Of a stretch of DNA of 64,000 nt, positions 7,301 through 62,747 are shown one piece after another. The notes beneath the pieces are model-generated. The model searched no databases and was not told the DNA's origin. It saw only the letters and a program-made list of their open reading frames with translations. A program made the position numbers and the translations under genes. The DNA is from Eledone cirrhosa. Taxonomy: Eukaryota. The stretch lies in assembly GCA_964016885.1 (NCBI GenBank), contig OZ024763.1, forward strand, positions 22,444,001 through 22,508,000. The letters run 5' to 3'. Each line of letters starts with the position of its first letter. Within the stretch, counting starts at the first letter, position 1.

Positions 7301-8620
7301 TAAATTTTGATTACTTAAACCATAGCTAATATTGTATTGCCTTATTAGATATTTTAAATATTTTTAATATTAATTTATCAAATAGGGTTTTCGAGTCATT
7401 TACCTGGGTTGTTTCCTAAGTTTTTACTTAACTGCATGTGAGACCTAAGTATATACTTTTGTTTTTGTTTTTTAATTTCCAGTTGATTTTATTTATTAAT
7501 ACTACTGTGCATTCTATTTTCTGTCTGGCCCTTATTCACTCATCCACATATATGTCTGTTTACCAACCTTGTAATTATAAGTAATTATATATTATATTAT
7601 GTTTATTATTTTATATTGTAGTTGTTATTGTACTATTGATCCTTATTACTTACCGTTGATTATATGTACCATTATGATATGTTAAATTTTATATATCATG
7701 TAAGATGTTTATATTTTTGTACCATCATAATTTTGGGTATTGTACAATTTATATTTTTTTCTCACCTACTCTGTAACTCTATATGAATTGATTTGTTAAT
7801 TTGCATGCCATTATATGTTATGTATTATATATGTTATTATATTATTATTATAGTATTATTGTGACATCTATATTGTTTGTGTAAATTAACCGGGGATTAT
7901 CTATTATATTTTATTATATAGTATATAATTATATAGTTTATTATATATTATATGTGTTACTTTTAATCATTTTATTACTTCATGTATATTAGATATACGT
8001 ATTATTATTATTATTTTTATTCCTATCATGCTTATTTATATTTAAACTCTTAATAAGGTTTAATTTGTGCTGTTGAAGATGGATATGTGTATTGATGTAT
8101 GTGTATATGTGCGTACGTGTGCGTACATATATACATATGTATATTGTGCCTTTTAATTTTTATTGTAATTTTAATATTGTTACAAGTATATTATATTATA
8201 TTATATAGTATTATATATAATTCCCGCTCTATATAACCACTTTTGTTTAGCTCTAGGTTTTTTTTGCTTTGGACTATATTTGTAATATAGTTCTAAATGT
8301 TATACACCTCCTTAGTGATTTTTATCATATATTTTTACCCATAATCTTGCAATACTTTAGTGTATGTACACTCCATATTCTTCGGAGTTTTCGGCTTGAA
8401 TTGACCGATAGTACTTCTTGTTGTTTTAATTGCCCTGATGAGTCCTTAATAGGACGAAACATTGTTGGCTAATAAAGACTTTTGATGTATTGAAGGCTTC
8501 TTTGTTTTATTTTCATAATTCTTCGGCTCTGTTTAATTACATTGAGCTATAACTTTTACTGTCATTTCTATAATACGAAGAGGGTGTTTAACTCCAACAC
8601 ACTTCAGTATTTTAACCCTT
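4326..8620 (+). mobile_element. Penelope-like retroelement copy 2 (RT + C-terminal GIY-YIG), disrupted
   Basis: ADKT, FIQFDIDAYYTSI, FDVTVGS.DSAQ, GLYRDD, NFLDVTL, SNHP, then GIY-YIG NIVY..YIG; +1 shift at A8 (5017-5024); about 260-bp deletion near 6240 relative to copy 3; long AT-rich 3' UTR with HHR. Confidence 0.92.
8432..8469 (+). ncRNA. Minimal type I hammerhead ribozyme (PLE pLTR)
   Basis: GCC-CTGATGA-GTCCT-TAAT-AGGAC-GAAAC-ATT-GTT/GGC; predicted cleavage after 8466. Confidence 0.85.
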
Positions 8621-11600
8621 GTCACTGCTCCCAATCGGTTGAGCTTCCTCATATATACTGGTATTTTGGCCTTTATATATATATATATCTGACAGTATGC
8701 TAACAAAGAGTTACCTGCTTTTATCTCTGAAGAATATTCCCACCCCCTCTAAGAATACTTACGAAAAACTATTGATAGCTAGTGTTAACTCCTTTGTAAA
8801 AAGGATTAGATGGCGTGCTTTCCACTATGATAATAATAAGAATAGGAAGGACCCCAGGAATAGAACTAATTTTAATAACTACGGCTTCAAAACTTATAAG
8901 AGCCCACCACACAATATTCTGTTAGATAGTTTTGAAAGTGACTTACTCTCTCTTGTCAAAAATATTAAGTATAGGCCAAATAATAGACATAGAAATTATA
9001 ATAATTTTGATAAGTTCCAGTCTAGACTTAAAAATATTGTTAAGGGTTTCGGTGAGAATAAGTCCATTCTTGTCCCGGCAGATAAGACTAAGAATCTATA
9101 CTCCATGGATTATAGTGCTTACCGCGACTTTATTTATAAGGAGCTGCATAGAAACTATAAAAAAACTACGCTTGAGAATTTGAACCACATCAATAGGCCT
9201 TAGAATTGTCTCTGACCTCGGCCTCGATAAGTATACACAGCCATATTACCCTCGAGAACCGAGATTCACTCTTAAGGATCATAAGGTTGATTTTATTAGT
9301 AACCCCTCTGTTAGACTCATCTGTCCTTCTAAGTCTGATATAGCCATTATCAGTAAAAAAAATCCTTGACCTTATTATACCAGATGTTAGGGATAAGGTT
9401 AATTTTAACCTATGGGGGAACACTAAGGAAGTTATAGATTGGTTCTCCGGGATTAATAGACTTGAATCTAATAAGTTTATCCAATTCGATATTGATGCCT
9501 ACTACACATCGATTTCACCCATCCTCCTCAATAAAGCTTTAATGTTGGCCATGAGAGTGTCCAGCCTTACACGATCACAGGTAGATATTATACTAGCAGC
9601 CCGTAAAACTATTATTAAATTTGAGGACACATTTTGAACCCGTAAAAACACGCCCAATAATTTCGACGTTACAATGGGTTCGAGTGATTCGGCCCAGGTT
9701 ACTGATCTTGTTGGGTTGTTCCTCCTTAATGAACTATATGCTACCTTCCCGCACCTTATAGGCGGACTATATCGTGATGATGCATTGTTTGTAATTAACT
9801 CTAGCACCAACAATGTAGAACATAATAAGAAGAAGCTTTATAAGTTTTTTAAAAGCTATAACCTTTCGATCACGATAGATAGAAATGATAGAGCGGTTAA
9901 CTTTTTAGATGTGACTTTGGACTTGGTCACTAATAGTTTTAAACCCTTCCATAAGCCTAATGAAATACTTTCTTATGTTAGTCCCAATTCTAACCACCCC
10001 AAGTCTATGATAAGCTCTATAATTAAGGGTGTATCTAATAGGATTTCCACACTCTCTAAGGACGTAGGAACATTTAATGAACATGCGGAGTACTATAATA
10101 ATGCCCTAGCAAATTCAGGTTACTCTAGTAAAATACATTATAATAATAGTAACCTTAGAAAGTCTCCGTCCACTTTTAATAATAATAACATAATATCACA
10201 TAACATGGCCATGAATGGGAGTAGCAAACATAGTAACCGTAAAAATTATATAGGTGTATCTGAACCCATCCATAAGTTAACCCACCGGACCCGTAATAGT
10301 GAATATAATACCTCTAGGAAACAAGTTGAACCCCCTGAGCGCTCACACATTGGTGATAATTTTGCTGGATCTTATTCTAATAATGTTGCTCCTACTGATC
10401 CTATCATTGGCCCTAATCCTTATGATGGGATTCCGTACAGCAGCAGATCTACTGGAGGTAGAAACTGTAATAGACTTAATGAAATTTTGGCTGATTCTAC
10501 GAATGCGGCTTTAACTAATCCTTGTAGTAACCCTAGTCTCGATGGTGGGATATTTGATAATGGTAGAGTCGGTAAGAATAAAAATAGAAGGCGATTAAAT
10601 ACTTATTTTAACCCGCCATATAATCAGGAAGTATCAACTAATATCCCTAGGTCTTTCTTCTCTATCTTAGAGAAAAATTTCCCCCCCTTCTCATAAATAC
10701 CATAGTATTTTTAATAAAAATGTTATTAAACTTTCATTCTCCACCACCCCTAATATTAGTTCTCATTTAGCTAGCACTAACAATAGGAAGATTAGGGATG
10801 GATTCTCCTCTCTACATACTACTAGTCTGAACAGATCTGGTAATGCATTACCACCAGAACAGTCCTTATCTAATAGCAATCCTACGTGTAATGCATCACC
10901 ACTTGAGTCAACCAATAACACCCGGAAGTGCAATTGTAGAGTGAGTGCTAACTGCCCTTTAAACGGTAACTGCCTTTCTAAGAACATTGTCTATGCTTGC
11001 GAAGTTATAACTAATTCCTCTAATAGAACTTATATAGGCTCTACATCTAACACTTTTAAGACTAGGTTTAACTCTCATATCTCCAATTTCAAGCATGTTA
11101 AGTTTAAGAATTCTACTTCTTTAGCACATTATATCTGGGATCTTAAGGGAGCTAATATACCATATAGCCTTAACTGGCGTTTAGTAGCACGCTCTAACCA
11201 CCTTTCTACACATACTAAGTTTTGTAATCTCTGTATCCTCGAGACACACTCTATAATCTTCTCTAGCGCATCTTTACTTAATAGAAAGTCTGAGATATTC
11301 TCTTCTTGCCCCCACGCTATTTCTAATTCATACTTTTATTATAAACCTAAACGTTCTAGTAGTACAAATTGTACCCATTAGCTGATATATTCCATTATTT
11401 ATTTTTTAGTTTAGGTTCTTTTGTTTGCCAACATTATTATTATCATCATTATTATAATTGGTTTTTGATGACTCTTCATTCTAACTCTCATAATCTTTTG
11501 GCTACTGTACCATATCTATCTTCTTACGCATTAAATTTTCACTATTACACCTTATGAATGTATATAAGATTATATATTTTACGGTATTTATTTTATTTTA

Positions 11601-13358
11601 TTCTTATTTTTATTTTTATTTTTATTCGGATTCTTCTTTGGAACCCCCCCCCCCCCCCATGCGCACATAAACTTAGTGTCAACCCCTCCAAATTGACTAT
11701 GATTATATTATATTTAACCCCCCTCCTTTACGCTCCTTTCTATTATGTAATATAGTATATCGACTATATTTTATGCCCCTTTGCATCCTCCATATATTTC
11801 TCCATTTCTGTCCCTATTAGCCTACCTTAATTCTGCTTAAGTCAGTTTTTTAGATATCGTTATGTATATGATAATAAAAAATTTTCATTCCTTTTTGTAA
11901 ACATTTGTAACGAAATATTAACGTTTATAAACTTTAATTACTTAAACTATAGCTAATATTATACTGCCTTATTGGATAGTTTAAATATTTTTAATATTAA
12001 TTTATCAAATAGGGTTTTTGCGTTATTTACAGGGGTTGTTTCCTTAGTTTTTACTTAACTACTTAACTGCATGTGAGACCTAAATGTATACGTTTGTTTT
12101 TGTTTTTTAATTTCCGGTTGATTCTATTTATTTACTTTATTCTATATTTTATATATTATATCTTATATTTTATTTGTAGTACTACTGTGCATTATATTTA
12201 CTGTCTGGCACTTACTCACTCATCCATATACATGTCTGTCTACCAACCTTGTAATTATAAGTAATTATATATTATATTATGTTAATTTATTTGATATAAT
12301 ATATTATATTATATTGTATTTTTTATTGTAATATTGATCCTTATTACTTACCGTTAATTATATGTAACATTATGATATGTTAAACTTTATATATCATGTA
12401 AGATGTTTGAACTTCTGTACCATCATAATTTTTTTGAGGTATTGTACAATTTATTTTTCCTCACCTACTCTGTAACCCAGTATGAACTGATTTGTTATAT
12501 TGTTTATTATAAATGTTAGTATATTATATATCGTAAATGTTAATATATTATGATTATATTATTATTGTGACATCTATATTATTTGTGTAAATTAACCGGA
12601 GATTATCTATCCTATTATATTGTATTATATAGCATATAACTGTATTATTTATTATTTATTATATGTGCTACTTATAATTATATCATATTATTACCTCATG
12701 TATATTGGGTAGACGTATTAGTAATATTATTATTATTATTTTCATTCCTATCATGCTTATTTTTATATTCAAACTCTTAATAAGGTTTAATTTGTGCAGT
12801 TAAAGATGGATGTGTGTATTGTTGTATGTGTATGTGTGTGTACGTGTGTGCACATATATGCATATGCATATTGTACCTTTTGATTTTTATTGTAATTTTA
12901 ATGTTGGTAAAGGTATATTATATTATATTATATTACATTGTATTATATATAATTCCTGCTATATATAACCACCTTTGTTTAGTTCTAGGTTTTTTTTGCT
13001 TTGGACTATATTTGTAATATGGTTCTTAATGTTATATACATCCTTAGTAATTTTTATTATATATTTTTATTACTTTTATTATATATTTTTGCAATACTTT
13101 AGTCTATGTACACTCCATATTCTTCGGAGCTTCCGGCTTGTATCTGCCGATATTACTTCTTGTTGTTTTAATTGCCCTGATGAGTCCTTAATAGGACGAA
13201 ACATTGTCGGCTAATAAAGACTTTTGATGTATTGAAGGCTTCTTTGTTTTACTCTCTTAATTTTTCGGCTCTGTTTAACTACATTGAGCTATAACTTTTA
13301 CTGTCATTTCTATAATACGAAGAGGGTGTTTAACTCCAACACACTCCAGTATTTTAAC

Positions 13359-13362
<4 letters not shown>
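8621..13362 (+). mobile_element. Penelope-like retroelement copy 3 (head-to-tail with copy 2), disrupted
   Basis: Same motifs as copy 2 plus YFNPPY linker; small deletion near 9196, A8 shift at 9355-9362, TGG>TGA near 9636, extra C near 10681; ends ttttaaccctt followed by (TA)n. Confidence 0.92.
13174..13211 (+). ncRNA. Minimal type I hammerhead ribozyme, GUC triplet
   Basis: GCC-CTGATGA-GTCCTTAATAGGAC-GAAAC-ATT-GTC/GGC; predicted cleavage after 13208. Confidence 0.88.
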
Positions 13363-17563: not shown

Positions 17564-18090
17564 TAAGGATACTATTTATGGTTATGTATATACTAAAACC
17601 TTTTATAGTTATATATATTTTAAACCCTAAATAGTGAAAGACAGTAATTTATTACTACCTTATTACCAGTAAGATAAATAGCTCAATGTAATAACATCAG
17701 TTGTTCTACAGAGCAGTTATATAGAAATTACATGAATTAAAGTTCTGTTTAAACCATTTATTCGCTTACAATTGTTTCTTCCAAACCAAGGTTTGGAGTC
17801 TTCGGAGCAATTTTTCAATGATTGTTTACATACATGACCTCCTTTCCAACACAAGAGACACACAGAAACATATGTATTTATCGATGCACAGAGGGGTGAC
17901 ATCCATTATAATATTTTAGCATGGCAATTTACAATCAAAGATTAAAGTCATATTAAAAGAAAACAAAGGAGGTCATGTATGTAAACAATCATTGAAAAAT
18001 TGCTCCGAAAACTCCAAACCTTGGTTTGGAAGAAACAATTGTAAGCGAATAAATGGTTTAAACAGAACTTTGATTCATGTAATTTCTATA
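17555..18090. mobile_element. Fold-back PLE-pLTR-like element with two variant HHRs
   Basis: About 130-bp inverted repeat (17718-17845 / 17965-18090); HHR-like motifs at 17762-17810(-) and 18000-18048(+); flanked by (TA)n. Confidence 0.75.
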
Positions 18091-18138: not shown

Positions 18139-18224
18139 GTGTCTGAGGAACCTGTGAAAACAGAGTCAGGTCGATCCACACAGATCGCACCTTGAGCTGT
18201 TCGCCGGGGAAACAATTGTAATAC
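18139..18224 (+). ncRNA. Hammerhead ribozyme with extended stem II
   Basis: GTGT-CTGAGGA-[about 60 nt]-GAAAC-AATT-GTA/ATAC, then AATAAA. Confidence 0.7.
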
Positions 18225-18261
18225 ACAATAAATTGAGTTCCGATGCATCACTGATTTTGGT

Positions 18262-19057
18262 ATGAAAGGGTATGTATTACTATGTATTATTATTAGTAAT
18301 ACATACCCTTTTCAAAGACCTCCATGTATAGATAAGAAATGCATAATCTGTAAACTTAGCCCCCATATTAACTGCAAAACTAGAAACATAGTATATAGCA
18401 TAAGATGTACTGAGGGACAATGCAAGGATAAGAATATCATGTACATAGGTGAGACAGCTCGTAGCATAGGAGGTCGATTAAATGAACACTGGTGAGAGCT
18501 TCAAGATAGAAAATACTCATCAGTACTCCACCAACATGCTAAAATAGAACATAAGGTCAAATTAGAGAACATAGAAATAAAAATAAAATCTACACACAGA
18601 AAAGACGCAATGTTTAGACAAATCACAGAGGCAATAAACATAAATGAACTCCAACCAAAATTAAATAGAAAACATGAATGGAATAGCAACATCACAACTT
18701 ACAATTAAGGGCAAAATGAAGACACACACACATAGAACAAACATGTAAATAGACAAATAAAAACACACACAGACACTCGGATGTAACATGCGCAAACTAA
18801 GCACACAACACACACAAAAACAAGATGGCGTAGGGCAGAACAAAGGAGAGGCACAAAACAAAGAAAATAATCCATGGTCACTGATGAGGTCACAGAATGT
18901 GTGACGAAAGAACTTTGACAATATATGAACAACCATCTGGTTGTGGAACCAACCAACTGGAAATTTATAAATTTTTAAAATTTATAATAAATTGGAGTGA
19001 AAGCAACTGGTGCGTGTGTTTCTTATTGGCAACATGACCCTCCCAAAGTATAACAAT
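18262..19057 (+). mobile_element. Second PLE family: 5'-truncated GIY-YIG EN plus 3' UTR/pLTR
   Basis: CIICK...CKTRNIVYSIRC...C...YIGETARSIGGRLNEH*...SVLHQH...H...RQITEAINI...PKLN to 18708; HHR at 18877; its 3' terminus recurs inverted at about 32085-32134. Confidence 0.85.
18877..18919 (+). ncRNA. Minimal type I hammerhead ribozyme
   Basis: GTCA-CTGATGA-GGTCAC-AGAATGT-GTGAC-GAAAG-AA-CTT/TGAC. Confidence 0.8.
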
Positions 19058-19072
19058 ATATATGTATATATA

Positions 19073-19353: not shown

Positions 19354-21122
19354 TACTCTTTACTCTTTACTCTTTTACTCTTTTACCTGTTCCAGCCATC
19401 CGGCTGAGGCCATGCTGGGGCACCACCCTTGTTGCTACACATTTTATCTCCAGCCTGTATTGGTTGGCCACTGGTGCAAGAAGGAGTTTGTTGCTGCTGC
19501 CCTTAGGTTTCCCCCGTGCCTTGCTGTGGGCTCATCCGGGATCCTGGATAGCAAGGTGTCGAGATTTTTCTTGAAGATATCCACATCCACACCATGCAGA
19601 TCTCTCAGATCCCTCGGCAGCATGTTGAAGAGTTGAGGGCCTTTGAACCCCAGGCTATTGCAATATCTGCTCCTTATTCTAGATGTGGAAGACGGAACCT
19701 TTGGCACCACACAGTCACATCCTGTTCGACGGTTGGTCCAGCTCTCAGTGCCAAAGTTTGATGCTAGTCCCTCCAGGATTTTCCACATGTAGATCACTGT
19801 GTATCTCTCCCGTCTTCATTCCAAGGAGTAGAAGTTCAGTTCTTTTAGCCTCTCCCAGTAGCTTATCTCCTTCATCGTCGCAATCCTCTTGGTGTAGCTG
19901 CGCTGGATTGCCTCAAGCTCCGTGGTTAATTTGACACTATGGCGTGACCACAACTGGGAGCAATAGTCCAGGCGGCTTAGGACAAATGTCCTCCATAGTG
20001 TCAACATGGTGTCTCGGTCTCTTGTCTGGAAAGTCCTCAAGATCCAGCCAGCGAGTCGTCTGCACATTGTCGCCACTTTCATGATGTGTGAGGAAAAAGA
20101 TGCATAATCGATTTTGACACGGGGATATCGGTCCCTCCTGGTCTGGCGTAACTGTGTTGTACTGTATTTGTGTTTGCAGGTTTGTGTTGTAAGGCTTGGA
20201 ATTTGCCAGCATTAAACTGCATGTTGTTGTCTTCTGCCCATTTGTGTATGGTATCCAGATCTTGTTGTAAAAGGGCCGGGTCTTTGATTGCCTGCGCTAC
20301 CTTAGTGTCATCAGCATAGCTAGTGAGTGATGTTGTTGTATGTACTGCAGAGGGCATGTCTGAGAGAGCCACCGAAAACAGTAGTGGTCCCAGGACTGAG
20401 CCTTGGGGCACCCCACTTGTTATTGATGTTTCCTTTCATAGGGCCCCGTTTGCTGCGACTGTCTGGCTTCTGTCCTTTAAGAAGTCATGCAACCACTCAC
20501 CTACTTTTCCAATTATGCCAAGTTTGTGACATATCATTCCATGGTCGACCTTGTCAAAGGCCTTCACAAAGTCAAGATATATCACGTCTACATGTGAGCT
20601 GTCTAGTAGTTGTCTCAGTACCCAGTCGTAGTGATGTAGCAGTTGTGTAAGGCAGCTTATTCCTGGACGAAAGCCATGCTGCGTGCTTGTCAGGCGGTCA
20701 TTTTCCTCGAGGAAATTGATCAGTTTCTTTCTGACGACTCGCTCCATGACCTTACTGATATGTGACGTCAGGGAGACTGGCCTATAGTTCTTGGCCTCCA
20801 CTCTGCTACCTCCTTTATGGATAGGGCATATTGTGTCTTCTTTCAGCTCCCTGGGTAGTATACCACTAGCCAAGGAGCTTCTGAAGAGCGTTTTCAGTGG
20901 AGTTGCTAAGGCCCGCTTACATGTTTTTAAGAGGACTGCTGGGAATCCATCAGGTCCAGCATCTTAGTCTGTTCTAATTTCATCTATGGCGCATACCACA
21001 TCCTCCGTTATGTCTATGTGATTGATGGTCGCCATTTCTTCATGGAGTGTTGTGGCATCAAAGAACTCCTCTGGCTTTGTTATTTGCATGTGCCTCAGGG
21101 ACATGTGAACACACTTTTGTAC
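19354..21122 (-). mobile_element. CR1-group LINE, 5'-truncated, frameshifted
   Basis: NYRPVSLTS, QHGFR, YLDFVKAFDKV, PQGSVLGPLLF, YADDTK, LDYCSQLW, YWERLKEL, GPQLFN; 3' tail (GAGTAAA/GAGTAAAA)n. Confidence 0.9.
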
Positions 21123-22695: not shown

Positions 22696-25600
22696 CTAAG
22701 GCGGGTAAAATTCCCGAGATCCATGGATGAGTTCTCTCCAGCGGTCTCTGTCCCTCATTATCGCTACCATGTCCTGCGTCTCCAATAGACCAGTGTCTGT
22801 CCTTAGGGCATCAACATACATTAACCTTGGTCTTCCTCTTCTAGTGTGTCCATGTAGGGGCTCCCAAAGGAGCACTGAGTGCAATGTCAACTCTGGATGT
22901 CGGTGAGCATGTCCAGCTAACCTCAGTCTCCTCTGTGTCACTTTTGAGCTGACTTTTGGGATGCTCCCATACAGCTCTGAGTTTTTCATCCTCAGTGTAT
23001 ACTGATTAATGTTCAGAGCCATCCTCACCATTCTAGTGTAGCACCCATCCACCATCTGAGTGAGTTTCTTGGTCAGTGTCCAAGTCTCAGACCCATACAG
23101 CAGCACAGACTCCACTACAGCAATGAAGAGGCGGATTTTCAGGTCTCTACGAAGGTCCGACTTCCACACCGATCTCAAGCTGTGGCACGCCGCCCAGGCC
23201 TTGCTCTTCCTTTAAACCACATCATCTTCCGTATTCCCAATCTTTGCTCCCAAATACAGGAAGCCCTCAACCAATTCTAGCGGCTTCCTGCCTACATTAG
23301 TGATCCCCTCTGGCTTCTCAACATTCTCTACCAGATATTTTGTTTTAGTCTCATTCATTCTCAGCCCCACACTCACCGACACAGTCTCAACCTCCCGCAT
23401 CAAATTTTCTGCCTCCTTCACTGTATTTGTCACCAAAACTATGTCGTCGGCAAATTCAGCATCCGATACCTTTTTCACCCTAACTCTCCTGCTCTGAGCC
23501 GGTGCCACAGTAAAGCCATTTCTCCAGTGCAAGGCGCATACAATAGTCCACTACGATGATAAAAAGGTAGGGAGCCAATGTATCTCCCTGGAGCACTCCA
23601 GCCAGTATCTCAAAGAACTCTGTCATCCCATCAGGTGTAATGACTTGGGCTTTGGTGTTGGTGTAGAGCAGGTCCACTATCTTCTTGGGGATTCCATAAG
23701 CCTGTAAGATCTTCATCAGGCAGTAACGGTCCACAGAATCAAAGGCCTTCCTAAAGTCAATGAAAACCATGACTGCAGGAAGGCACTTTGCTCTAGCTCC
23801 CTCTAATATCCTCCTCAGCATCAGGATGTGACTGGTGGTTGATCTACCCTCTCTGAAGCCGTTCTGGTTGTCCCTGAGCTTCTCTCCATCTCAGACTGGA
23901 TCCTGTTAAGAATCATCCTGTTGAGGGTCTTTGTCACAAGTGACGTCAGTGAGATCCCCCTGTAGTTGTTGGTATTAGAGAGATCTCCCTTCTTTGGCAC
24001 TGGGACGATGTTACTGATCCTCCACTGATTTGGGGCAACTCCTTTATCCAGTGCCCCGTTACAGAACCCCAGGATGATATCATCAAAATCACACCTCTTC
24101 ATCACCTCTGATGCCACTCCATCTTCTCCATGAGCCTTGCCCTCCTTGATCCTCTTCTTGGCTCTCTGGAGCTCCCCCCTGGTGAAGGGCCCTGTCTCAA
24201 CATCCAGTTCCTGAAACAGCCGCCTGATCTCCCCAGTGCTCTGGGCTGTGGAGGGTGGCTCTCCTAGTAGGGTCCTAAAATGGTCTAGCCATTTCCTCTT
24301 CCTATCCTCGGGCCCTGTTCCCTGGATCTGACTCGAACACCTTCTCTTCCTCCCTGTGATCTCGTTGATGATCATCCAGCTCTCCTTACATCCAGATCTG
24401 TCAACCGCTCTCTCCACACTTCTGATCTTCTCTATCAGTGCCTCCTCTCTGACCTCAGTGTAAGTGGTACAGAGATCTTCCCTCATCACCTCCACAGTCT
24501 CCATCCTCTCCTCCGTAGGATCAGCATAGAATTGGTCCTTGGCAGCTTTCAGGTGTTCTCTGGCTGCACACACTTTTGGGTTTGCAGAGCTGACATGCTT
24601 CCCTTTGTTCTTTTTCCTCGGCACCAAGGTTTCACTTGCTTCCGCCACTACATTGGTGAAGTGCCCATACCTCCTCGTCACACTCTCCTCAGTCCATCCA
24701 ATCTCTTTCTCCTCTGACACTCCACACAGAGCACTAAACCTGTTTCTCACTTCCACTGTGAACCTCTCCTGTAGCTTATCATCTTCCTTGAAAGCTCCCC
24801 AGTCATAGATTGCTCTCCGGGGCCGAGCCTTGCTCTTTCTTAAGCTCACCCGGACCTCACTCATAACAAGCCGGTGGTCACTACCCAGTGTACTGAAATA
24901 GCTGTATGGTTCCGTGTTCAGAACACTATTCCGCCACTTTTTCCTCACCAGAATGAAATCAATCTGGGACTTGGACAGGTGCATATCCGAGATGTAGGTC
25001 CACATCTTCCCCAGATTCTTCCTAAACCTTAGGTTGGTCGCCATCAAGTTCGCCTCCAGCAGGGTGTCTCTCAGTAGTCTTCCATTTCGGTTGGTGTTGT
25101 TATGGAAGTACCAGCAAGGATCTTCATTGCCCTCCTTACTCAGATGTGCATTGAAGTCCCCCAAAACAAGCAGGATATTGTGTGTCTGAGTGGTGTTGAC
25201 AGCTCTACACACCTCCTCATGGAACTCTTCCGCACTCACATCACTGTCACCCTCGGTTGGACTATAGGCTGAGATGACTGTCAGTCTTGGGTTTCCAATG
25301 AAGGTCACCCTCAACACTCGCGGGGAGATAGGCATTATTTCCCTCACCAACAGATTGGTTTTTGCACTGAACACAAAACCCACTCCTCCGACTGCAGCAT
25401 TTGTTGTGTTCTTCACTGCCGATGTAGTGATGAGCTGGCTCTTCTTCCCGATCATCACACTCCTCACGGGCTCATCGTGTAGGATCCTGTGTTCTTGGAT
25501 CGCAAGTATCTGCATACCACTCTCCTCGAACAGATGTCCCAACTCCTCTCTCTTCTCCAGCGCCCGAATAGTCCTCACACTCAAAGTGCCCATTTTGATG

Positions 25601-25990
25601 GCTCTTCTGCAGGACAAAACTGCATTCTTTATATTTGTCTCAGAGACAACTGATCCATCATCCACTGGCCCTCTCTGTGGCTCTAAGCCAGCAGAGTCAT
25701 AACGACCAGGCTGCTCCTTGACAGTGTAATTAGGGGCTCTAACCCTAGTGCTGTTAGATCGACTCTCCATATTTCTTTTCAATGGCTGACAATACCTTAC
25801 CGGCGCCACTCGAATAAGGTAGTTATTTAACCCATAAATGGAGCCCTAACAGGTACTACCACTACGGGCCAGGGCAGACCTGGGAGTCATGACAACTAAG
25901 GGGTAACTCCACATTCCCCACAACTCCTGAACTCCCGAACTGGAGCCTTGCAACTGGATGTAGTTTAATGTCATACTCAGGACATATTTG
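22696..25990 (-). mobile_element. RTE-clade LINE, near full length (APE + RT), few frameshifts
   Basis: APE: AIQEHR, SAYSPT, LGDFNA, QIDFILV, SDH; RT: NYRGISL, DFRKAFDSV, GVLQGDTLAPYLF, FADD, YLG; C-term LLYGSETW, RRLRLAGH, RRGRP. Confidence 0.93.
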
Positions 25991-26059: not shown

Positions 26060-26660
26060 CGTTTTTTGAAATATTTACTTCTGCGTTCACAGATTGACTT
26101 TTTTAGTTTCGGAAGATCCCGTTAAGGGTGAAAGCAGCGATTCTTTGCTTAAACTTTAATCTGTCATTTTAATAAATATATATTTGTATGTATATATATA
26201 TATATGTATGTATATATATATATATATATCTATGTATATATGTATGTATATATATATGTATGTATATATATATATATATGTATGTGTATATATATATATG
26301 TATGTATGTATATATATGTATGTGTATATATATATATATATGTATATATATATGTGTGTATATATATGTATGTATATATATATATATATATATGTATATA
26401 TAATATATAGTAATAATAATAAATTTGAAGACTAAAATCCAAAGAGGGCTCGATAAGGATAAATATATATCAAATATATAAGGACCGTAGAGCAAATATT
26501 TATTAAAATAACAGATTAAAGTTTAAGCAAAGAATCGCTTTTTTGAAATATCCAGTTCTGCGTTTACAGATTGACTTTGTTAGTTTCAGAAGATCCCGTT
26601 AAGGGTGAAAGCAGCGATTCTTTGCTTAAACTTTAATCTGTTATTTTAATAAATATATAT
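26060..26660. mobile_element. Short HHR elements of the CAGAAGA-core family (direct copy, inverted 3' end, direct copy)
   Basis: HHR-like motifs at 26105-26155 and 26582-26632; inverted segment about 26410-26539; homologs at about 30275-30330 and 62150-62300. Confidence 0.75.
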
Positions 26661-27275: not shown

Positions 27276-30112
27276 CATCATCATCATCATCATTTTACGT
27301 CCACTTTTCCCTGCTTGCAAGGGTGGGACGGGTCTTATTCAGCACAGCATCTCTCCACTCGTCACGGTCCTTCGTCATCTCCAACGTGAGCTTCAATGAT
27401 CTGAGGTCTGTTCTCACCACCTCCGCCCATGTTTTTCGTGGTCTACCTCTACCACGTCTTCCTTCAACTGGCATTTCCTGGCACTTCTTCACCCATCAGT
27501 CATCCTCCATGCGCATCACATGTCCATACCACCTCAGTCTCCTCTCCCGTACACTACATTCTATCCCTCTCAGACACAGTTTCTCTCTCAACACATTTAT
27601 GCTGGGTCGTTCACGTACATTTACACTGCACATCCAACGGAACATGCTTGCCTCATTTCTCTCCAGCTGTCGCATATCCTCTGCAGTTGCTGCCCATGTC
27701 TCACTACCATGCAGCATCACGCTCCTCACACAGGCATCATACAACCGGCCTTTTGTACGCAGGGAGAAACCCTTCTTCGTCAACAGAGGAAGCAGCTCCC
27801 TAAACTCCTTCCAACCTGTCCTTATTCTAGATACTATGGCCTCGGAATACCCTCCTCCCATGCTAATCTGATCTCCTAGGTACCGGAAGCTATTCACCAC
27901 TTCTATAGCGCTCTCCTGCATTTAAAAAAATGTGTCTATCAATGCAACTTCTACTGTCTAATTTCCCTGTACATCTACTGCATACATATTTCTCCCTACT
28001 GATTCTGCTATAAGAACCAGATCGTCAGCATAGAGAAGTTCCCATGGACAGCCAGTCTTAAACTCCTCTGTTATGGCTTGGAGGACTATAATGAACAAGA
28101 GCGGGCTGAGGACCGAACCCTGATGTACTCCTACTTGTATCTGGAATTCCTCACTAAATTCCATTCCTACCCTGACTTTACTGAGAGTACCTCTGTACAA
28201 AGTTTGCACTGTCCTCACAAGCCATTCCTCAACACCTAGCTTCCTTAGGGACCACCAGATGACAGATCGGGGTACCCTATCAAAGGCCTTCTCTAGGTCA
28301 ACAAAGGCTAAGTATAGTGGCTTATTCTTCCCTAAGAACCTCTCTTGCAATTGTCTCACCAAGAAGAGGGCATCTGTTGTACTCTTCCCAGGCACAAAAC
28401 CAAACTGCATCTCATCTAGTTTGACTCTTTCTCTAATTAGTTGTGCTAAAATCCTTTCTGCCACTTTCATAACCTGATCTATCAGTTTTATACCCCTATA
28501 ATTGCTCCTCTCCAGAGCATCCCCTTTACCTTTGTAGCAATTTATGAGAATACTGCTGCACCAGTCTTTGGGTATGACACCACCATATATAGCCTGATTG
28601 ATGATGCGTGCAACCAGTTTAGTGCCTACGTCCCCTGATGCCTTCAGCATCTCAGCAACTATTCCCGATGGTCCGGCAGCCTTACCATTTTTCATTTCCC
28701 TAATCGCCTCTTGGACCCTATATTCATCAATCTCAATAGCTGGTCCCTCTGTCGGATCTACCAAGGGTAATTTCTCTCTCTCCCATTTGTTCTCCACATT
28801 CATCAGTCTCTCATAATGACATTTCCAGGCCTCCTTTTTCTGATTATTCGTGACACTAAGTACACCGGCATCACCCCGGACACATTTATCTCCAACAACA
28901 TCCTGATTTGCATTGACACACTGCCTTGCAATGTGGAACACCGCCCGCCTCTGATCTTCCCATTGCAGAACATTGGCAAACCTCCTACTCTCTGCCTCCC
29001 TGCGTGCTAAGTACACCTGACGTCTAGCTTCTCTCTTAGTGGCTGTATATTCTTCCCTACTCCCACCCTTTTTCCAAGTCTTCCATGCTAGTCTTTTATC
29101 TCTAATAGCCTTATCTACTGTGCTGTTCCACCACCAGGTCACTCTCTGTCTGGTTGGAGCTCTGCTCCAGCCACAAGTTTCATCAGTAGCCTGCAGCAAG
29201 TTGTCACGTAAGAAATTCCAGTTATTATCTATGTCATACGTCTCTAAATCGTCTTCTTTTTCGTCATATACATCTTGAAGGGCTTTCCTAAATTTGTATT
29301 TTAGTGAAAGGTCTTTTAGCTTCCAGACCTTTCTTCTCCACACCTTCCTATATGTCTCATTCCATCTCTTGCTTACTGAGATATCACTAACAACTAACCT
29401 ATGCTGTGAGGTACATTCTTCCCCAGGGTATGCCTTGGTATTAGACACTATCTGCCTGTCCCGCTGCCTAACTAGTAAGAAGTCAATCTGGCTTATGTGC
29501 TCACCAGATTTGTAGGTTATTAGGTGATTGGCAGGTTTCTGGAAGTTTGTGTTGCAAATAGTCAATGTACCTGCATCACAAAATTCAAGAAGTCTCACTC
29601 ATTCTTCATTTCTTGAACTGTAACCGTGCCCACCATGTACCCCAGTGTAACCATCCTGGAGCTGTCCAACATGACCATTGAAGTCTCCTGCTAGCATAAC
29701 GATGTCTCCGTCTTCTTGTTTGTAGAAGTTGCTCATAAAAGCAGTCTTTCTCATCTTTGCCTAGGCCTGCTTGGGGAGCATAGGCCGAGATGATTGTCAG
29801 TAGTCTCCTGCCTACAACTAATCTAAGCTTAATTATTCGATTACTAACTCAAACTACCTCTATTGTCTTATTGATCCATTTCTCAGCCAGGAAAATGCCT
29901 ACTCCCCCTAACCCATCATCCTTACCTACCCAGAATAGCTTATAGCTAAGACGTTTGCCTACAACTAGTCTCGCAGAGGCACCTCTCCATCTCACCTCTT
30001 GCACGCAGCACACATCCACCTGCTTTCTCTCCAGCATCTCCGCTATTTCAGCAGATCTACCTCTGAGAGTGCCAACATTAAGTGTTGCAACTCTGAGATG
30101 TGACGTCTTCAT
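27276..30112 (-). mobile_element. RTE (BovB-like) LINE, near full length, frameshifted
   Basis: [87 protein letters not shown]; (GAT)n 3' tail. Confidence 0.95.
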
Positions 30113-30798: not shown

Positions 30799-31067
30799 AA
30801 TGTAGGAGGTGAGTTTTATTGTAGCACAATAAAGCAATGCAAATATCGGATAAGTAGCACTCAACAGTTTATAGGACTGAAGTATGAATACTATAAAATC
30901 AAAAGATGGTTAAAAGAGTTCCATGTATTTTATTATGCGCATTTCAAAAACAAATATCATCATGGGATGATATTTGAGAACGCAAATATCATCCCATGAT
31001 GATATTTGTTCTTGAAATGCGCATAATAAAATACATGGAACTCTTTTAACCATCTTTTGATTTTATA
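30799..31067. mobile_element. Fold-back HHR element, ATGCGCAT family
   Basis: Inverted arms 30892-30976 / 30983-31067; fold point lies inside HHR stem II. Confidence 0.85.
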
Positions 31068-31231: not shown

Positions 31232-31524
31232 TATAATGATACATGACATACCCTGAGATGTTAAATGGTTAAGATTTAATCAAGTTAGTTATTAATACCT
31301 ATATTTTAATATTAATAACTCCTGAAAATTATTTTTTTCTCGTTGAGTGCTTCCAATCTACTGTAAAACTCATTCTTTGACATAATCATCGAATATTGTT
31401 TAACAACTTAATATATATATATATATATATAAGCAAAAGAGATATTTAATTTGTTGGTAATTCAACAAATATAAATATTTATAACTGATTCGAAGCACTT
31501 GACAGGTTTTCTGGCGTATAATAT

Positions 31525-34679: not shown

Positions 34680-34821
34680 AATATAGAAATGGCTTCTACA
34701 GGACTAGCGCTGTTTCATTCGGGAGAAATCATCAGCAAGTCATTTCTATATTAAATATTTACACTCTACTATGTATTGAGTACCTTACTTACTGTGGTTA
34801 CGCCCGATTGAACCCGGGATA

Positions 34822-40219: not shown

Positions 40220-40255
40220 TCTTCTGATGAAGGACTAGTGTCCGAAACGTTAAGA
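40220..40255 (+). ncRNA. Ultra-minimal hammerhead (stem III = AACGTT palindrome)
   Basis: TCTT-CTGATGA-AGGAC-TAGT-GTCC-GAAAC-GTT/AAGA in a short element between TA and CA repeats. Confidence 0.8.
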
Positions 40256-40617
40256 CCCTCCTCCTGCTATATCAAGCGTTAATCTAATATATCCCTTCCC
40301 TATACTGTACCGATTGTGTTATTATTTCTGTTTACCTTTTACACACGCACACACGCACACACACACGCACACACACATATATATACTTCTATTTAATCTT
40401 ATATATTTGTGATATATATGACCACGGACCAGTCAGTTCTCCCCGTCGGACGGGAAGATTTGAAATAACCGTTGAGGTGGGTGAGAGATGTCTTCTCTTG
40501 TGAAAATAGATAGATAGCTTTCATTTTGCCTCATTTCTCTCCATTTTGGGGCACTTTTCTTTTTCATGGTACTCCCCGTTTGAGTTTTTAGAGGTTGGTA
40601 GGTCTGTGATGAAAATA

Positions 40618-43112: not shown

Positions 43113-43268
43113 GCGAGTTCCGGGTCCAATCGGGGGTAACCACAGTAAGGTACTCAATACGTTCGTAGAGTGTAAACATCATGTTTAATATAGAAATGGC
43201 TCCTACAGGACTAGAACTGTTTAATTCGAAAGAAATCATCAGGGCTTTCCTGATGATTTCTATATTAA
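43113..43268 (-). mobile_element. Short HHR element (CTGTAGAAGC family), GAAA>TAAA, with terminal snap-back
   Basis: HHR at 43199-43245; agaaatcatcagg-gcttt-cctgatgatttct hairpin. Confidence 0.7.
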
Positions 43269-50208: not shown

Positions 50209-50888
50209 GGAGGTGAGTTTTATTGTAGTACAATAAAGCAATGCAGATATCGGATAAGAAGCACTCTACAGTTTGTAGGACTGGAGTATACATAATATAT
50301 AAGATCAAAAGATGGTTAAATGAGTTCCATGTATTTTATTATGCGCATTTCAAAAACAAATATCATCATGCAATAACATTTGTGTTTTCATCAGATAAAA
50401 TAGGAGGACATGATATGAAGGTTAAAAACACTTGTGGATAGTACAGTTTTAAATCAACATATCGATTTAAAACATATGTTGATTTAAAACTGTACTATCC
50501 ACAAGTGTTTTTAACCTTCATATCATGTCCTCCTATTTTATCTGACGAAAACACAAATGTTATTGCATGATGATATTTGTTTTTGAAATGCGCATAATAA
50601 AATACAGGGAACTCATTTAACCATCTTTTGATCTTATATATTATATATATATATATATATAACATTTGTGTTTTCATCAGATAAAATAGGAGGACATGAT
50701 ATGAAGGTTAAAAACACTTGTGGATAGTACAGTTTTAAATCAACATATGTTTTAAATCGATATGTTGATTTAAAACTGCACTATCCACAAGTGTTTTTAA
50801 CCTTCATATCATGTCCTCCTATTTTATCTGATGAAAACACAAATGTTATTGCAGGATGATATTTGTTTTTGAAATGCGCATAATAATA
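50206..50888. mobile_element. Double-palindrome HHR element (ATGCGCAT family), three full HHRs plus one half
   Basis: HHRs at 50334-50400(-), 50536-50602(+) and 50822-50886(+); palindrome centres near 50468 and 50754. Confidence 0.9.
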
Positions 50889-51490: not shown

Positions 51491-51914
51491 ATATATATAT
51501 ATGTATATATAAATGAAAAGTATAGAAATTGTTGTAGCGAGAAGCTAACAGTATTCCATAACATATAAGTGACTATAACGTCAAAATGGGAAAATAGTTA
51601 ACATAAGATACTTGTGTATATATATATATATATACACACAAGTGGAAGCTTAGTAAAATCGAAGCTTTGGCTGTGGCCAAGCTAACGACCTACAATAAGG
51701 AATGAGCAGCAAAGCACTCAATACGGTTGGCCTTAGAGTAATAACATACGTTTAGACAGCTTGACAAATTGAAAATTGCGGCAGGCAGACCTAGCCACAC
51801 AATACCAAAAACAACAAAAAAACATATATATATATATACTTGGGATAGCAGAATTTAAAAATATTAGAGATAGTCAGAGCCCAACAGCTGAGCTCTTGCC
51901 GTTTCGAGACCTTC

Positions 51915-52110: not shown

Positions 52111-52786
52111 TAGTAGAATAATCGAGTATCGAAAAATCGGCGCACGAGTTCACGATAAACAAAATTCGAGATGAGCGGCAGAGGGCTCTATAATTCAAAT
52201 AAATTAGAGCTATAACTATCGTTAAATACCGTCACACGTAGAATATGTCTACAATCAACCAAATAACCGATAAGTTCGATATGCAAGATTCGGGACACTC
52301 AGATAAATTATCAATAAATCAATAAATGAAATGAATGTAAAATGCATACCCGGACCCACTAGAGAGATGGAATATCTAGCTTCTTGGGTTTCTGTAAATC
52401 CTTAAACCGTCATCTATCAGCTCATATAAAAATATAAGACTTACAGATAGCGGGGGACTGGAGTTACTTTATCAATGAGCTTCGTCCGAATGGATGGAAA
52501 GACAAGACCCATGCTAAAAATACGCACATGGATTTCAGCAAGGGAGATAACCTTTATATCCGCAAAAATATTCGGAAAAGTGTGGCAAAAACACATATCG
52601 AATAAGAGTGCTCAATAGACATGTTAAAATAAACAGGGGCTATTCATCATTTAATAGAATCGACAAAAAATGAACAATAAAATTAACTGGTCAATAGCTA
52701 AGTCTAGAGCTAAATATAGTAGAATAATCGAGTATCGAAAAATCGGCGCACGAGTTCACGATAAACAAAATTCGAGATGAGCGGCA
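52111..52786. mobile_element. Element of about 680 bp with identical 70-bp terminal direct repeats
   Basis: tagtagaataatcgagtatcg...gagatgagcggca at 52111-52180 and 52717-52786. Confidence 0.6.
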
Positions 52787-53221: not shown

Positions 53222-53309
53222 ATATCTACTCCAAAACTTGTTGAGTGCTTTATATCAGTTATAAAATATTTACTTGTTGTAACCCAACAATTTTAAATAT
53301 AACTTTTGC

Positions 53310-59677: not shown

Positions 59678-59881
59678 ATAGGAACGAGTAGGACCCCGAC
59701 GGCTGAGCTCAAGCCATTTCGACGGCTAATTCTGGACTAAATTTAGTCCAGAATTAGCCGTCGAAACGGCTTGAGCTCAGCCGTCGGGGTCCTACTCGTT
59801 CCTATTACCCACTCTACTACCCTAAGTATTGAGTACTTTGGTGCGTTATGGTCCACCTGGTTCCTTACCACATTTCTTCCG

Positions 59882-59883
<2 letters not shown>
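59678..59883. mobile_element. 128-bp near-perfect palindrome plus tail (GAGCTCAGCC HHR family)
   Basis: Centre at 59741/59742; each arm carries HHR 3' half GAAACGGC..GCCGTC/GGGGTCC. Confidence 0.88.
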
Positions 59884-59917
<34 letters not shown>

Positions 59918-60325: not shown

Positions 60326-60356
<31 letters not shown>

Positions 60357-61508
60357 ATATATGTGTGTGTATATATATATATATGTGTGTGTGTATATAT
60401 ATATGTGTGTGTGTATATATATATATATATATGTGTGTGTATATATATGTGTGCGTGTATATATATATATATATATTACATAGCCATACATACTGGGCCA
60501 TTTTCCCCCTGGCTCTAGGTTGTTACCTAGACACACCACCACCCCTACTAATATTACATCTTGTGTCTCCTCCAGTATTCTTTCCCTTTAACCCTCACCA
60601 CCACCCATTCTCCCACCCCTCCCACACACGCACATTACCCCTTTTTTTATCCCCTCCCACCAATGCCTCTGCTCATCCTTGTTTCCTTATCTCAGAAAAA
60701 AATGTTATCTGATGTTGCTTAACATAGGGTGGCGGTGTGAGGGTGGTGGTGTTGTGAGGGTGTGGGTTGTGGTGGTGGTGATAGGTGTGGTGCTGTTGGT
60801 GGTGGTGGCTAATGTAGGTGGTGGGGTCGGGGTAGTTGGAATCTGGGTAGGTATGGATGTGGGGTCAGGGCAGTGTGGTTTTGTGTGTGGAGGGTGTCTA
60901 GGGTGTGGATGTGGGTCTGGGTGTTGATGGTGGTGATGGGTGTGGCTGGCGGCAGGGTCCGGGGTAGTTGTAATCTGGGTGGGTGCAGAGGGGTGGGGTG
61001 GGGGGTTGTGTGTGGAGTAGTGGTGGGAGATGTTGAGGTTAGTTGGAAGTTAGGAAGGTGTTGGTGGTGGTGATGTGGTGGCACCACCACAACACCACCA
61101 CCACCACAACACCACCACCACCACAACACCACCACCACCACAACACCACCACCACAACACCACCACCACCACAACACCACCACAACACCAACACCAACAT
61201 CACCAACATCACCAACACCACCACCACAACCACAGATTTTATATATAAAATATATATATATATTTTCCGTTATAAGATGTTATTTTAACTCAGCTTCACT
61301 TTCATTTTTAATAGATATCAATTTCAAAACTTATATCCTGAGCAGGCCGGGCGTCACTGTAAAGATCGTCTAGTCTCCTGAAACCTTTGGTACTGGAATA
61401 ATTATATTGTGTTGTTTATTATGTAGTTAAATAGCTCTGTACTGTACATAGAGCACTCTTATTTCCTTTACCTTTTCTACGGAAATACTTAAAACATATA
61501 TATATATA

Positions 61509-61690: not shown

Positions 61691-61698
61691 ATATATAT

Positions 61699-61901
61699 AT
61701 AGGAAAAGAGTCAGGACCCCGACGGCTGAGCTCCAGTCGTTTCAACAGCTAGGTCTGAACAGTTCAGATCTAGCTCTCGAAACGGCCGGAGCTCAGCCGT
61801 CGGGGTCCTGACTCTTTTCCTATTACCCACTCTACTACTCTAAGTATTGAGTACTCTGGTGTGTTATGGTCCACCTGGTATCTTACCACACTTCCTTCGT
61901 T
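61699..61901. mobile_element. Palindrome plus tail (GAGCTCAGCC HHR family)
   Basis: Arms 61699-61760 / 61762-61823; tail homologous to 59805-59883. Confidence 0.85.
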
Positions 61902-62030
61902 ATATATATATACATCCAAAATTAAGATAAATTGAATTAAATTAAATTAAGGGTCTCATGCCAGATAGACATGCGCCATATCACCCGTAACATATGCTCC
62001 GAGATTCTAATGAGTAGATCCGAGCATTTT

Positions 62031-62130
62031 ATATCAACTAGAAATTGATTGACATATAATTAAACATATGAAACAATCCCCTGTCATTGTTTCATATGTT
62101 TAATTATATGTCAATCAATTTCTAGTTGAT
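62031..62130. repeat. Perfect inverted repeat of about 46 bp abutting (TA)n
   Basis: atatcaactag...gaaacaat / attgtttc...ctagttgatat. Confidence 0.85.
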
Positions 62131-62164
62131 ATATATATATATATTTGTTATAAGTACAGATTAA

Positions 62165-62216
62165 AGTTTAAGCAATGAATCGCTGCTTTCACCCTTTTAC
62201 GGGATCTTCTGAAACT
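62165..62216 (-). ncRNA. Variant hammerhead (CAGAAGA core)
   Basis: AGTTT-CAGAAGA-TCCC-GTAAAA-GGGT-GAAAGCA..TGCTT/AAACT. Confidence 0.65.
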
Positions 62217-62312
62217 GAGAAAAATATATTTTATGTATATATATATATAATCCTTATCGAGCCCTCATTGGATTTTAGTCTTCACATTTATTATTATCAT
62301 ATGCAGTGAATA

Positions 62313-62499
62313 GGGCGGTGAATTGGCAGTATCAGTAGAGGGTTGGACGCCATGCTTTCTAGCATAGTTACGTCCCTTTACGGTTTGAGTTCAAATCCCG
62401 TCGAGGTTAACTTTGCCTTTCATCCTTACGGGGTGATAAAATAAAGTACCAGTAATGTACTGGGTAATTGCTGGCCTTGTGCCAAAAGTAGAAACAATT
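62313..62499 (+). mobile_element. Full-length Nin/Deu-like SINE
   Basis: ggcggtgaattggcag...gagttcaaatccc...core and tail. Confidence 0.85.
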
Positions 62500-62534
62500 A
62501 TATATATAATATAAATAATTACAACAGTGACATA

Positions 62535-62586
62535 AACAAGTATTTAAATTTCATTGGGTTCTGGACCCCAACTCATTCAGCCTGTT
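62535..62586 (-). ncRNA. Hammerhead with 1-nt core insertion (CUGAAUGA)
   Basis: AACAGG-CTGAATGA-GTTGGG-GTCCAGAA-CCCAAT-GAA-ATTTAAAT-A/CTTGTT. Confidence 0.7.
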
Positions 62587-62747
62587 ACTTTCTTATATAT
62601 ATATAGTAGATAGTAGGATGAAATACTGGTGTTGGTACCAAATGAAGCACTCTATGCACAGGCAGAGTGTATATAATAGAAAAAACCCAGCAACTTTCAG
62701 TTACATATGAAAAATATAATAGAAAAAATATATCTTTTGTCACATCA

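What the first reader, a model, noticed from the sequence alone, without database searches (positions are those of the whole stretch)
8526..62668. Covarying hairpin (RCUC-stem-loop-stem-UU/UA-GAGY) downstream of the hammerhead across unrelated families
Seen: the same architecture with different, compensating inner stems. GCTC-TGT..ACA-TT-GAGC (8526, 13268); GCTC-TGTA..TACA-TT-GAGC (17681-17714, minus); ACTY-CAGT..ACTG-TT/TA-GAGT (30859 and 50263, minus); ACTC-TAC..GTA-TT-GAGT (34763, 59811, 61829); ACTC-TACG-AA-CGTA-TT-GAGT (43152, minus). Also ACTC-TAAGG..CCGTA-TT-GAGT (51716, minus); ACTC-CAA-AAC-TTG-TT-GAGT (53228); GCTC-TGTA-CTG-TACA-TA-GAGC (61434); ACTC-TGC..GCA-TA-GAGT (62649, minus); weaker at 26448 and 31318. 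The outer pair covaries (A-U versus G-C) and a 2-nt 3' bulge is kept. Where an HHR is linked, the hairpin begins about 25-65 nt 3' of the cleavage site. Inference: a conserved cis-acting RNA signal, such as a PLE RT recognition or priming element analogous to LINE 3' stem-loops. I do not know of a description of it.
Basis: partly seen in the sequence, partly recalled or inferred. Interest (0 to 1): 0.88.

Follow-up and report, generated by a model that had tools for sequence, protein, structure and literature searches.

The report
Twin hairpins set retroelement start sites
A small hairpin is conserved, usually in two copies, across one group of telomerase-related jumping genes (Hydra-type Penelope-like elements), and inserted copies end about six letters before one hairpin or the other, so each hairpin likely tells the element's reverse transcriptase where to start copying its RNA.

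Summary
The hairpin is real (14 matches against 0.6 in shuffles; only a 2-nt bulge is enriched). The four 'unrelated' families I could trace are distinct families of the known Hydra clade of Penelope-like elements (PLEs). Both were found in 27 of 37 divergent Hydra-like families, with compensatory changes at the fifth pair. Of 167 copies ending in (TA)n, 161 end within 12 nt before hp1 or hp2; one offset, 6 nt, fits all eight modal junctions. All 35 distinct fold-back insertions have one end of each kind. A TAT/ATA target mimic peaks at that spot in both hairpins. Likely mechanism: two reverse transcriptases dock on the two hairpins of one RNA and prime from the two strands of a cut (TA)n, which would explain the one-sided PLE 'tail'. 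Binding and priming are inferred, not shown; hp2 was not found for two window families. I found no description in seven literature searches. This scan has noted the same thing repeatedly on other pieces of this genome.

The parts
2089..3056 (-). Inverted 5'-truncated arm of the Hydra PLE insertion; its 3' end (2089/2090) stops 6 nt before where hp1 would begin (short end)
2136..2178 (-). Type I hammerhead motif in the inverted arm
4354..6795 (+). Hydra-clade PLE ORF, copy 1 (frameshifted; RWR, DKT, RT, CxCX5C linker, GIY-YIG)
8430..8472 (+). Type I hammerhead motif, internal pLTR
8526..8547 (+). Hairpin 1 (GCTC-T..A-TT-GAGC) in a read-through junction
8627..8644 (+).
8697..11381 (+). Hydra-clade PLE ORF, copy 2 (broken)
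13172..13214 (+). Type I hammerhead motif, terminal pLTR (Rfam Hammerhead_1 31.7 bits, below the gathering score of 34)
13268..13289 (+). Hairpin 1 of the terminal copy
13262..13362 (+). The 'tail': hp1 plus spacer, ending 6 nt before where hp2 would begin (long end), then (TA)n
17681..17714 (-). Hairpin 1, fold-back stub; partner arm ends at -9..-3; ORF link not tested
26448..26493 (-). Hairpin 1 with long inner part, fold-back stub; short ends mostly at -6..-2; ORF link not tested
30859..30883 (-). Hairpin 1, Hydra family F2 fold-back stub
31318..31348 (+). Hairpin 1 (one inner pair), fold-back stub with hammerhead in the inverted arm; ORF link not tested
34763..34781 (+). Hairpin 1, fold-back stub; hp2 and ORF not found for this family
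43152..43171 (-). Hairpin 1, same family as 34763
50263..50287 (-). Hairpin 1, Hydra family F2 fold-back stub
51716..51739 (-). Hairpin 1 (two inner pairs), truncated stub; ORF link not tested
52185..52210 (-).
53228..53246 (+). Hairpin 1, Hydra family F6 stub
59811..59834 (+). Hairpin 1, Hydra family F0 fold-back stub (59678-59885)
61434..61454 (+). Hairpin 1; hp2 and ORF not found for this family
61829..61852 (+). Hairpin 1, Hydra family F0 fold-back stub
62649..62668 (-). Hairpin 1, fold-back stub; partner arm ends at -7..-1; ORF link not tested

Best explanation
Hydra-clade Penelope-like elements carry two copies of this hairpin between the hammerhead and the ORF start, and each copy likely acts on the RNA as a docking site that holds one reverse transcriptase so that copying starts about 6 nt 5' of the hairpin. 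Shown by sequence: the motif [UAU/AUA at -8..-5] - RCUC-Y(loop)R-UH-GAGY - NCU, its two copies, the two end classes and their strict pairing. Inferred: (1) the element protein, probably two copies, binds hp1 and hp2 on one read-through transcript; (2) the GIY-YIG endonuclease cuts both strands of (TA)n, which is self-complementary and so offers the same primer end twice; (3) each primer pairs by 1-3 nt with the UAU/AUA and is extended away from its hairpin; (4) the cDNA from the hp2 site contains hp1 plus spacer (the 'tail'), the cDNA from the hp1 site does not; (5) the two cDNAs are joined head to head, giving a fold-back insertion with one long and one short end. A lone inserted copy lacks hp2 at its 3' end, so only tandem or read-through copies would be competent templates.
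For: Ends: 161 of 167 TA-ended copies in four families end within 12 nt 5' of hp1 or hp2, and -6 is the only offset common to all eight modal junction intervals although hairpin spacing is 78-101 nt. Pairing: 36 of 36 fold-back pairs (35 distinct insertions) have one end of each kind. Prediction tested: a second hairpin right after the tail end was found in three further families (310, 250, 313 matches, reversed-pattern control 0), followed by Hydra ORFs. Conservation: 3' half of the motif in 33 of 37 families under 75% protein identity, both hairpins in 27; fifth pair Watson-Crick in 58 of 60 sites called without a pairing rule, shuffle mean 35, max 48; 7 joint U-A/C-G changes on the protein tree. 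TAT/ATA starting at -7 in 14 of 23 hp1 and 12 of 30 hp2, against 0-6 at every position outside -9..-6. hp2 is absent from the DNA of long ends, so it must act on the template or a longer intermediate. In vitro, the Poseidon PAc protein starts at two internal RNA sites that bound the tail, extends both target strands, needs RNA out to +172 (3' of the start at +111-118) and is predicted to dimerise (PMC11167929). Control: a non-Hydra PLE in the same genome has two end classes but no such hairpin.
Against: No binding, priming or RNA data. G-U against A-C inside the stems is only 10 to 5, so the folded strand is not established by sequence. hp2 and a read-through copy were not found for the families of 34763/43152 and 61434. 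Four of 37 families lack the 3' motif or enough sequence, and several show one hairpin only; published Hydra-1_Crog deviates and Hydra-1_Obim shows no clear match by eye. Starred-branch independent pairs number only 4 (4 of 4, p 0.125), and the tree count used hairpins called with a pairing rule. The outer pair is G-C in nearly all foreign families, so its covariation rests on few events. One foreign end lies at -8 (L116). In A-U variants the predicted fold is weak. The control family and PAc make tails without this motif, so it is not the general PLE signal.
Confidence: 0.7

Rival explanations
1. The hairpins act on DNA: a longer cDNA or donor intermediate folds at hp1 and hp2 and the GIY-YIG endonuclease cuts about 6 nt before each, trimming the two ends (endonuclease-mediated resolution); or the short arm is a fold-back copy of the first cDNA that stops at hp1.
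For: Craig et al. 2021 ascribe the tail most likely to EN-mediated resolution; Frangieh et al. cite that the Penelope tail was needed for EN recognition of plasmid DNA; Arkhipova et al. 2013 read the palindromes as self-priming. It also predicts one end of each kind. The G-U test does not fix the strand. TAT/ATA at the ends could be an EN cut motif.
Against: In vitro RT start sites of PAc fall on the tail boundaries. The same offset and the same target mimic at both hairpins fit one priming geometry. Loop length varies from about 4 to 30 nt, which excludes a rigid double-stranded site.
Confidence: 0.14
2. The hairpin directs cleavage of the RNA (a host or element nuclease, or an unknown self-cleaving motif) about 6 nt upstream, and the RT then starts at ordinary RNA 3' ends, as LINEs do.
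For: Fixed offset and conserved unpaired nucleotides (UH bulge, 3' NCU) would also suit a cleavage signal. PAc RNA-seq read ends fall on the start sites, although transcribed insertions give the same pattern.
Against: Cleavage at both sites would separate the pieces and does not by itself give exactly one long and one short end in 35 of 35 insertions; PAc initiates internally on unprocessed RNA; no Rfam ribozyme matches at gathering score in nine loci.
Confidence: 0.09
3. The hairpins are protein-binding sites for packaging or translational control of the adjacent ORF; ends fall next to them only as a side effect.
For: hp2 lies 10-65 nt before the ATG; retroelement proteins often bind their own 5' UTR (general knowledge).
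Against: Does not explain the nucleotide-precise offset at both hairpins, the target mimic at -8..-5 or the strict long/short pairing.
Confidence: 0.05

Closest known systems
Hydra clade of C-terminal EN+ Penelope-like elements (Craig et al. 2021, PMC8557442; passages and supplement parts 23, 52, 53, 54 read)
   Same: RWK-type and DKT motifs, CxCX5C linker, canonical HHR, (TA)n targeting, tandem and inverted copies; published consensuses Hydra-1_Ajap (both hairpins), Hydra-2_Ajap and Hydra-2_Amil (hp1) contain the motif when read by eye.
   Different: The passages I read describe no hairpin after the HHR ('stem-loop' 0 occurrences in the main text) and give the tail as 30-40 bp from EN resolution; here tails are 57-101 nt and bounded by the hairpins.
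Two internal RT start sites of the Poseidon element PAc (Frangieh et al. 2024, PMC11167929; main text parts 1-3 of 4 and three supplements read, figures not visible)
   Same: Two start sites that bound the tail, both target strands extended, RNA 3' of the start required, predicted dimer.
   Different: Other clade; start in an 'AC-rich stem loop'; binding element not identified; no GCUC..UH-GAGC twin in the published template by eye (a repeated GGCCA..AGCC and one UCUC..GAGA stem about 7 nt past the second site are leads only); primer described as non-homologous, whereas Hydra templates carry a 1-3 nt target mimic.
3' stem-loops of stringent LINEs/SINEs and the R2 3' UTR element (recalled, not from a call)
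   Same: Small RNA structure recognised by the element's own RT for target-primed reverse transcription.
   Different: Those lie 5' of a start at the RNA 3' end and are copied; here there are two, each behind an internal start, and hp2 is not copied.
Telomerase RNA: template flanked by an alignment region and RT-bound stems (recalled, not from a call; PLE RTs are sister to TERT per PMC8557442)
   Same: Internal template start, short pairing with a simple-repeat primer, structure at a fixed distance from the template.
   Different: No repeated synthesis, no separate RNA gene, no sequence likeness tested.

Membership tests
Hydra-clade PLE | Single ORF, RT followed by C-terminal GIY-YIG EN | tested here: met
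   Intact 894-aa copy L019; GIY-YIG match E 2e-4, just under the Pfam cut-off; Pfam does not detect the RT
Hydra-clade PLE | RWK motif and DKG changed to DKT | tested here: met
   RWR/RWC and DKT in window family; RWR, RWI/RWT with DKT in F0, F2, F6 (definition)
Hydra-clade PLE | CxCX5C linker, no CCHH, CxxC and CxH around the EN end | tested here: met
   CNCRVSANC, CNLC, CPH in the window family; not checked for F0, F2, F6, whose 3' halves were not read
Hydra-clade PLE | Canonical type I HHR in the pLTR | tested here: met
   Motifs at 8430, 13172, 2136; cleavage not testable
Hydra-clade PLE | Insertion into (TA)n | tested here: met
   167 of 186 terminated copies end in TA runs
Hydra-clade PLE | Phylogenetic placement with named Hydra references | not tested
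   The tree holds only session sequences; published references were read, not aligned
LINE/SINE-type 3' stem-loop | Single structure near the RNA 3' end that is copied into every insertion | tested here: not met
   Two copies; short ends lack both hairpins, long ends lack hp2
Any Rfam RNA family | Match at gathering score | tested here: not met
   0 matches in nine junction loci; the best 150 of 257 window matches shown were microsatellite-driven microRNA models, three other sub-threshold families and one sub-threshold HHR
RT-binding initiation element | Binding of the element protein and control of the start position | not testable with these tools
   Positional evidence only
General PLE tail signal (all clades) | Same hairpin behind both ends in non-Hydra PLEs | tested here: not met
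   One non-Hydra family in this genome lacks it; PAc lacks it by eye; single mid-UTR look-alike in Naiad_Mmer only

The most novel reading that the evidence does not exclude
Hydra PLEs integrate by a symmetric double target-primed reaction: a protein dimer bound to twin hairpins on one RNA makes two first-strand cDNAs at once from both sides of a double-strand cut, each aligned like telomerase on a short copy of the target repeat, with no classical second-strand priming step. The ~25-nt module would be a portable start signal that sets where this RT begins on any RNA.
Probability: 0.45. Interest if true: 0.88.

Novelty: new variant of a known kind. Interest (0 to 1): 0.72.

Why it matters
How PLEs, the sister group of telomerase, choose internal start sites and why their insertions carry an inverted arm and a tail on one side only are open questions; the only in vitro study located the start sites but not the RNA element. 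A minimal, conserved, duplicated motif with a fixed 6-nt offset makes this directly testable by moving or mutating about 25 nt, explains why tandem copies would be needed for activity, gives a sequence tag for annotating Hydra ends (roughly 2 x 10^5 copies in this genome by extrapolation from 45 in 600 kb), and could define a programmable internal start for an RT-endonuclease.

Tried and rejected
Chance or AT-composition artefact: rejected. Fixed distance from the hammerhead: rejected; 25-59 nt from the presumed cleavage site and 44-66 nt from GAAA. Known Rfam family: none. Viral origin: no relatives in viral contigs. A MAFFT alignment of 48 hairpins put no gaps in the loops and was useless for a covariance model, so covariation was counted on anchored positions; R-scape was not available. 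Strand test by G-U against A-C: 10 to 5, inconclusive. Searches for hp2 in two families gave 4, 3 and 32 matches, none a recurring read-through junction. Search for the autonomous partner of the hammerhead family at 40224 found none. The '-8' ends listed for FAM11 come from an adjacent copy of the control family and were discarded. Global folding of 8425-8670 contains both hairpins but is no more stable than shuffles (z -0.49). No RNA reads and no dimer prediction were obtained, so expression, RNA ends and dimer formation remain open. Pyatkov et al. 2004 is not held and is cited only through Frangieh et al.
Full report
Observation. The hairpins are at the stated coordinates. The three weaker sites keep the core. 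In 80 stretches of 10 kb from the same 3.0-Gb genome, only a 2-nt bulge is enriched, 87 against 25.7, with TT, TA and TC on top. Of 85 distinct hits of a looser scan, 65 have a (TA)n run 30-100 nt downstream, against 8% of random positions.

What carries it. 2089-13362 is one insertion of a Penelope-like element: an inverted arm (2089-3056), a partial copy and two broken ORF units. [quoted passage not shown] 2021 give for the Hydra clade (passages read). The genome holds many near-identical copies (145 scored of 41,936 candidates). The best named relative is from Argonauta hians, so the host is probably a cephalopod (inference).

A second hairpin. At the internal junction hp1 (8526) is followed 101 nt later by a second one (8627-8644) and then the ATG. 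I predicted the same behind the tail ends of five other window families. Three were confirmed: 310, 250 and 313 genome matches, reversed-pattern control 0, the listed rows showing one recurring hp2 per family, followed by Hydra-type ORFs at 40-53% identity to the window family (output partly cut). Two were not: the families of 34763/43152 and 61434 gave only scattered matches. The small elements in the window are therefore, where traced, 5'-truncated stubs of several Hydra families.

Conservation outside this genome. A metagenome scan with an alignment of 58 proteins (58 of the 120 listed plus the window family) returned 78 loci, the best 80 of 498 confirmed. Of 41 hammerheads with at least 120 nt downstream, 35 have the hairpin 20-100 nt behind; antisense and upstream controls give 2 and 0. 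46 loci have an intact ORF start; with the four own families they collapse to 37 families under 75% identity (median 46%). hp2 was called in 31 and both hairpins in 27. Anchoring on the 3' half alone, 61 sites in 33 of 37 families were found, 60 with CTC upstream; the fifth pair is Watson-Crick in 58 (shuffle mean 35, max 48 of 10,000), the sixth in 40 (17, max 31), the outer in 56 (48, max 54). Shuffles ignore kinship; on the protein tree the fifth pair of hp1 changes 7 times, both sides together, but only 4 independent pairs lie on starred branches (p 0.125) and those hairpins were called with a pairing rule. L167 has a U-A outer pair in both hairpins. Misses: L117, L118, L149 atypical or none, L175 too short, L132 an A-C outer mismatch, L136, L165 and L169 one hairpin. 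The consensus is RCUC-Y(loop)R-UH-GAGY-NCU; hp1 has the longer inner stem, hp2 nearly always C-G at pair five. Read by eye, published Hydra-1_Ajap has both hairpins, Hydra-2_Ajap and Hydra-2_Amil hp1, Hydra-1_Amil stops before hp1, Hydra-1_Crog deviates and Hydra-1_Obim shows no clear match.

Position relative to insertion ends. In four families 186 copies terminate within the region; 167 end in a TA run and 161 of these within 12 nt before hp1 or hp2. Because the template often resembles the target, each junction is an interval; -6 is the only offset inside all eight modal intervals. Further window families agree in part (26448: 16 of 27 at -6..-2, 8 at -10..-7; 43152 was scattered because its copy differs from its relatives). 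Foreign contigs that hold both a read-through and a terminated copy end at -8 to 0. Every one of 36 head-to-head pairs (35 distinct; L221 and L222 overlap) has one end before hp1 and one before hp2; independent choice would give mixed pairs about half the time. In families whose ends were not used, TAT or ATA starts at -7 in 14 of 23 hp1 and 12 of 30 hp2, against at most 6 outside -9..-6 (the four own families are included in these counts, and L111 hp2 follows a TA run).

Control. The stub at 18143-19060 belongs to a non-Hydra PLE (CxxC linker, CCHH-type EN). It also has two end classes about 57 nt apart (19 short, 16 long, 6 read-through, 15 unclassified) but no such hairpin at either. The motif is thus a Hydra feature, not a by-product of PLE ends or of (TA)n flanks; one family is a small control.

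Mechanism. The tail equals hp1 plus spacer. hp2 is never in the DNA of a long end, so it acts on the template or a longer intermediate. Frangieh et al. 2024 showed for Poseidon PAc two internal start sites bounding the tail, extension of both target strands, a need for RNA 3' of the start, and a predicted dimer. The simplest account is two RTs on two hairpins of one RNA, each priming from one strand of a cut in self-complementary (TA)n, aligned by 1-3 nt on UAU/AUA; the cDNAs are joined head to head. Binding, dimer, priming and joining are inferred. DNA-level resolution by the endonuclease and RNA cleavage remain possible; the G-U test (10 to 5) does not separate them.

Literature. Seven library searches and readings of PMC11167929 (parts 1-3 of 4, three supplements; figures and the .gbk file not visible), PMC8557442 (passages, supplement parts 23, 52, 53, 54 and two word searches), PMC4209133, PMC3846280 and PMC13282606 (passages), and bioRxiv 10.64898/2026.07.22.740005 (parts 1-3 of 5; supplements closed) showed no description of this hairpin. 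Subscription papers, Repbase and Dfam notes were not searchable, so novelty is provisional. Rfam has no match. Earlier notes of this scan on other pieces of this genome reach the same reading; I consulted them after forming mine (stated), and they are not independent evidence.

Verdict. Real, conserved, apparently undescribed cis element of a known retroelement clade; new variant of a known kind; interest 0.72.

Noticed in passing
window 18143-19060 (+), HHR at 18881: Stub of a non-Hydra PLE (CxxC linker, CCHH-type GIY-YIG) with two end classes about 57 nt apart and no GCUC hairpin; its read-through continues with a different palindromic stem after the long end.
   Followed up: partly
window 59678-59885 and 61700-61900; loci L219-L230: The hammerhead of family F0 has the core UUGAGAA (U3-A8 in place of C3-G8) and a long stem III.
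   Followed up: partly
family F0 fold-backs: The two arms mostly meet 55-77 nt before hp1, not at the presumed ribozyme cut (25 nt before hp1); may mark the RNA 5' end or a strong stem.
   Followed up: no
G000:C2:356030062-356031902; L072 and L092: Tandem arrays with periods of 299 bp (F0 pLTR with hp2) and 311 bp (another hammerhead family): retrozyme-like.
   Followed up: no
window 40224-40340 (+): Common hammerhead-bearing repeat ending in (CA)n/(TA)n with no hairpin; autonomous partner not found.
   Followed up: partly
PAc template in PMC11167929 methods (read by eye): A repeated GGCCA..AGCC motif 43 nt apart, and a UCUC..GAGA stem starting about 7 nt after the second start site; possible Poseidon counterparts.
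   Followed up: no
Naiad_Mmer consensus, PMC8557442 supplement part 23: One hairpin of similar form in the 3' UTR, without the 3' NCU and not near an end; may be chance.
   Followed up: partly
window 20436-20963, 22696-25845, 27958-29598 (minus): Fragments of LINE-type elements (endonuclease and RT domains).
   Followed up: no
window 3058-4325 (+): A more diverged (73%) partial copy of the same Hydra family lies between the inverted arm and the first ORF.
   Followed up: no
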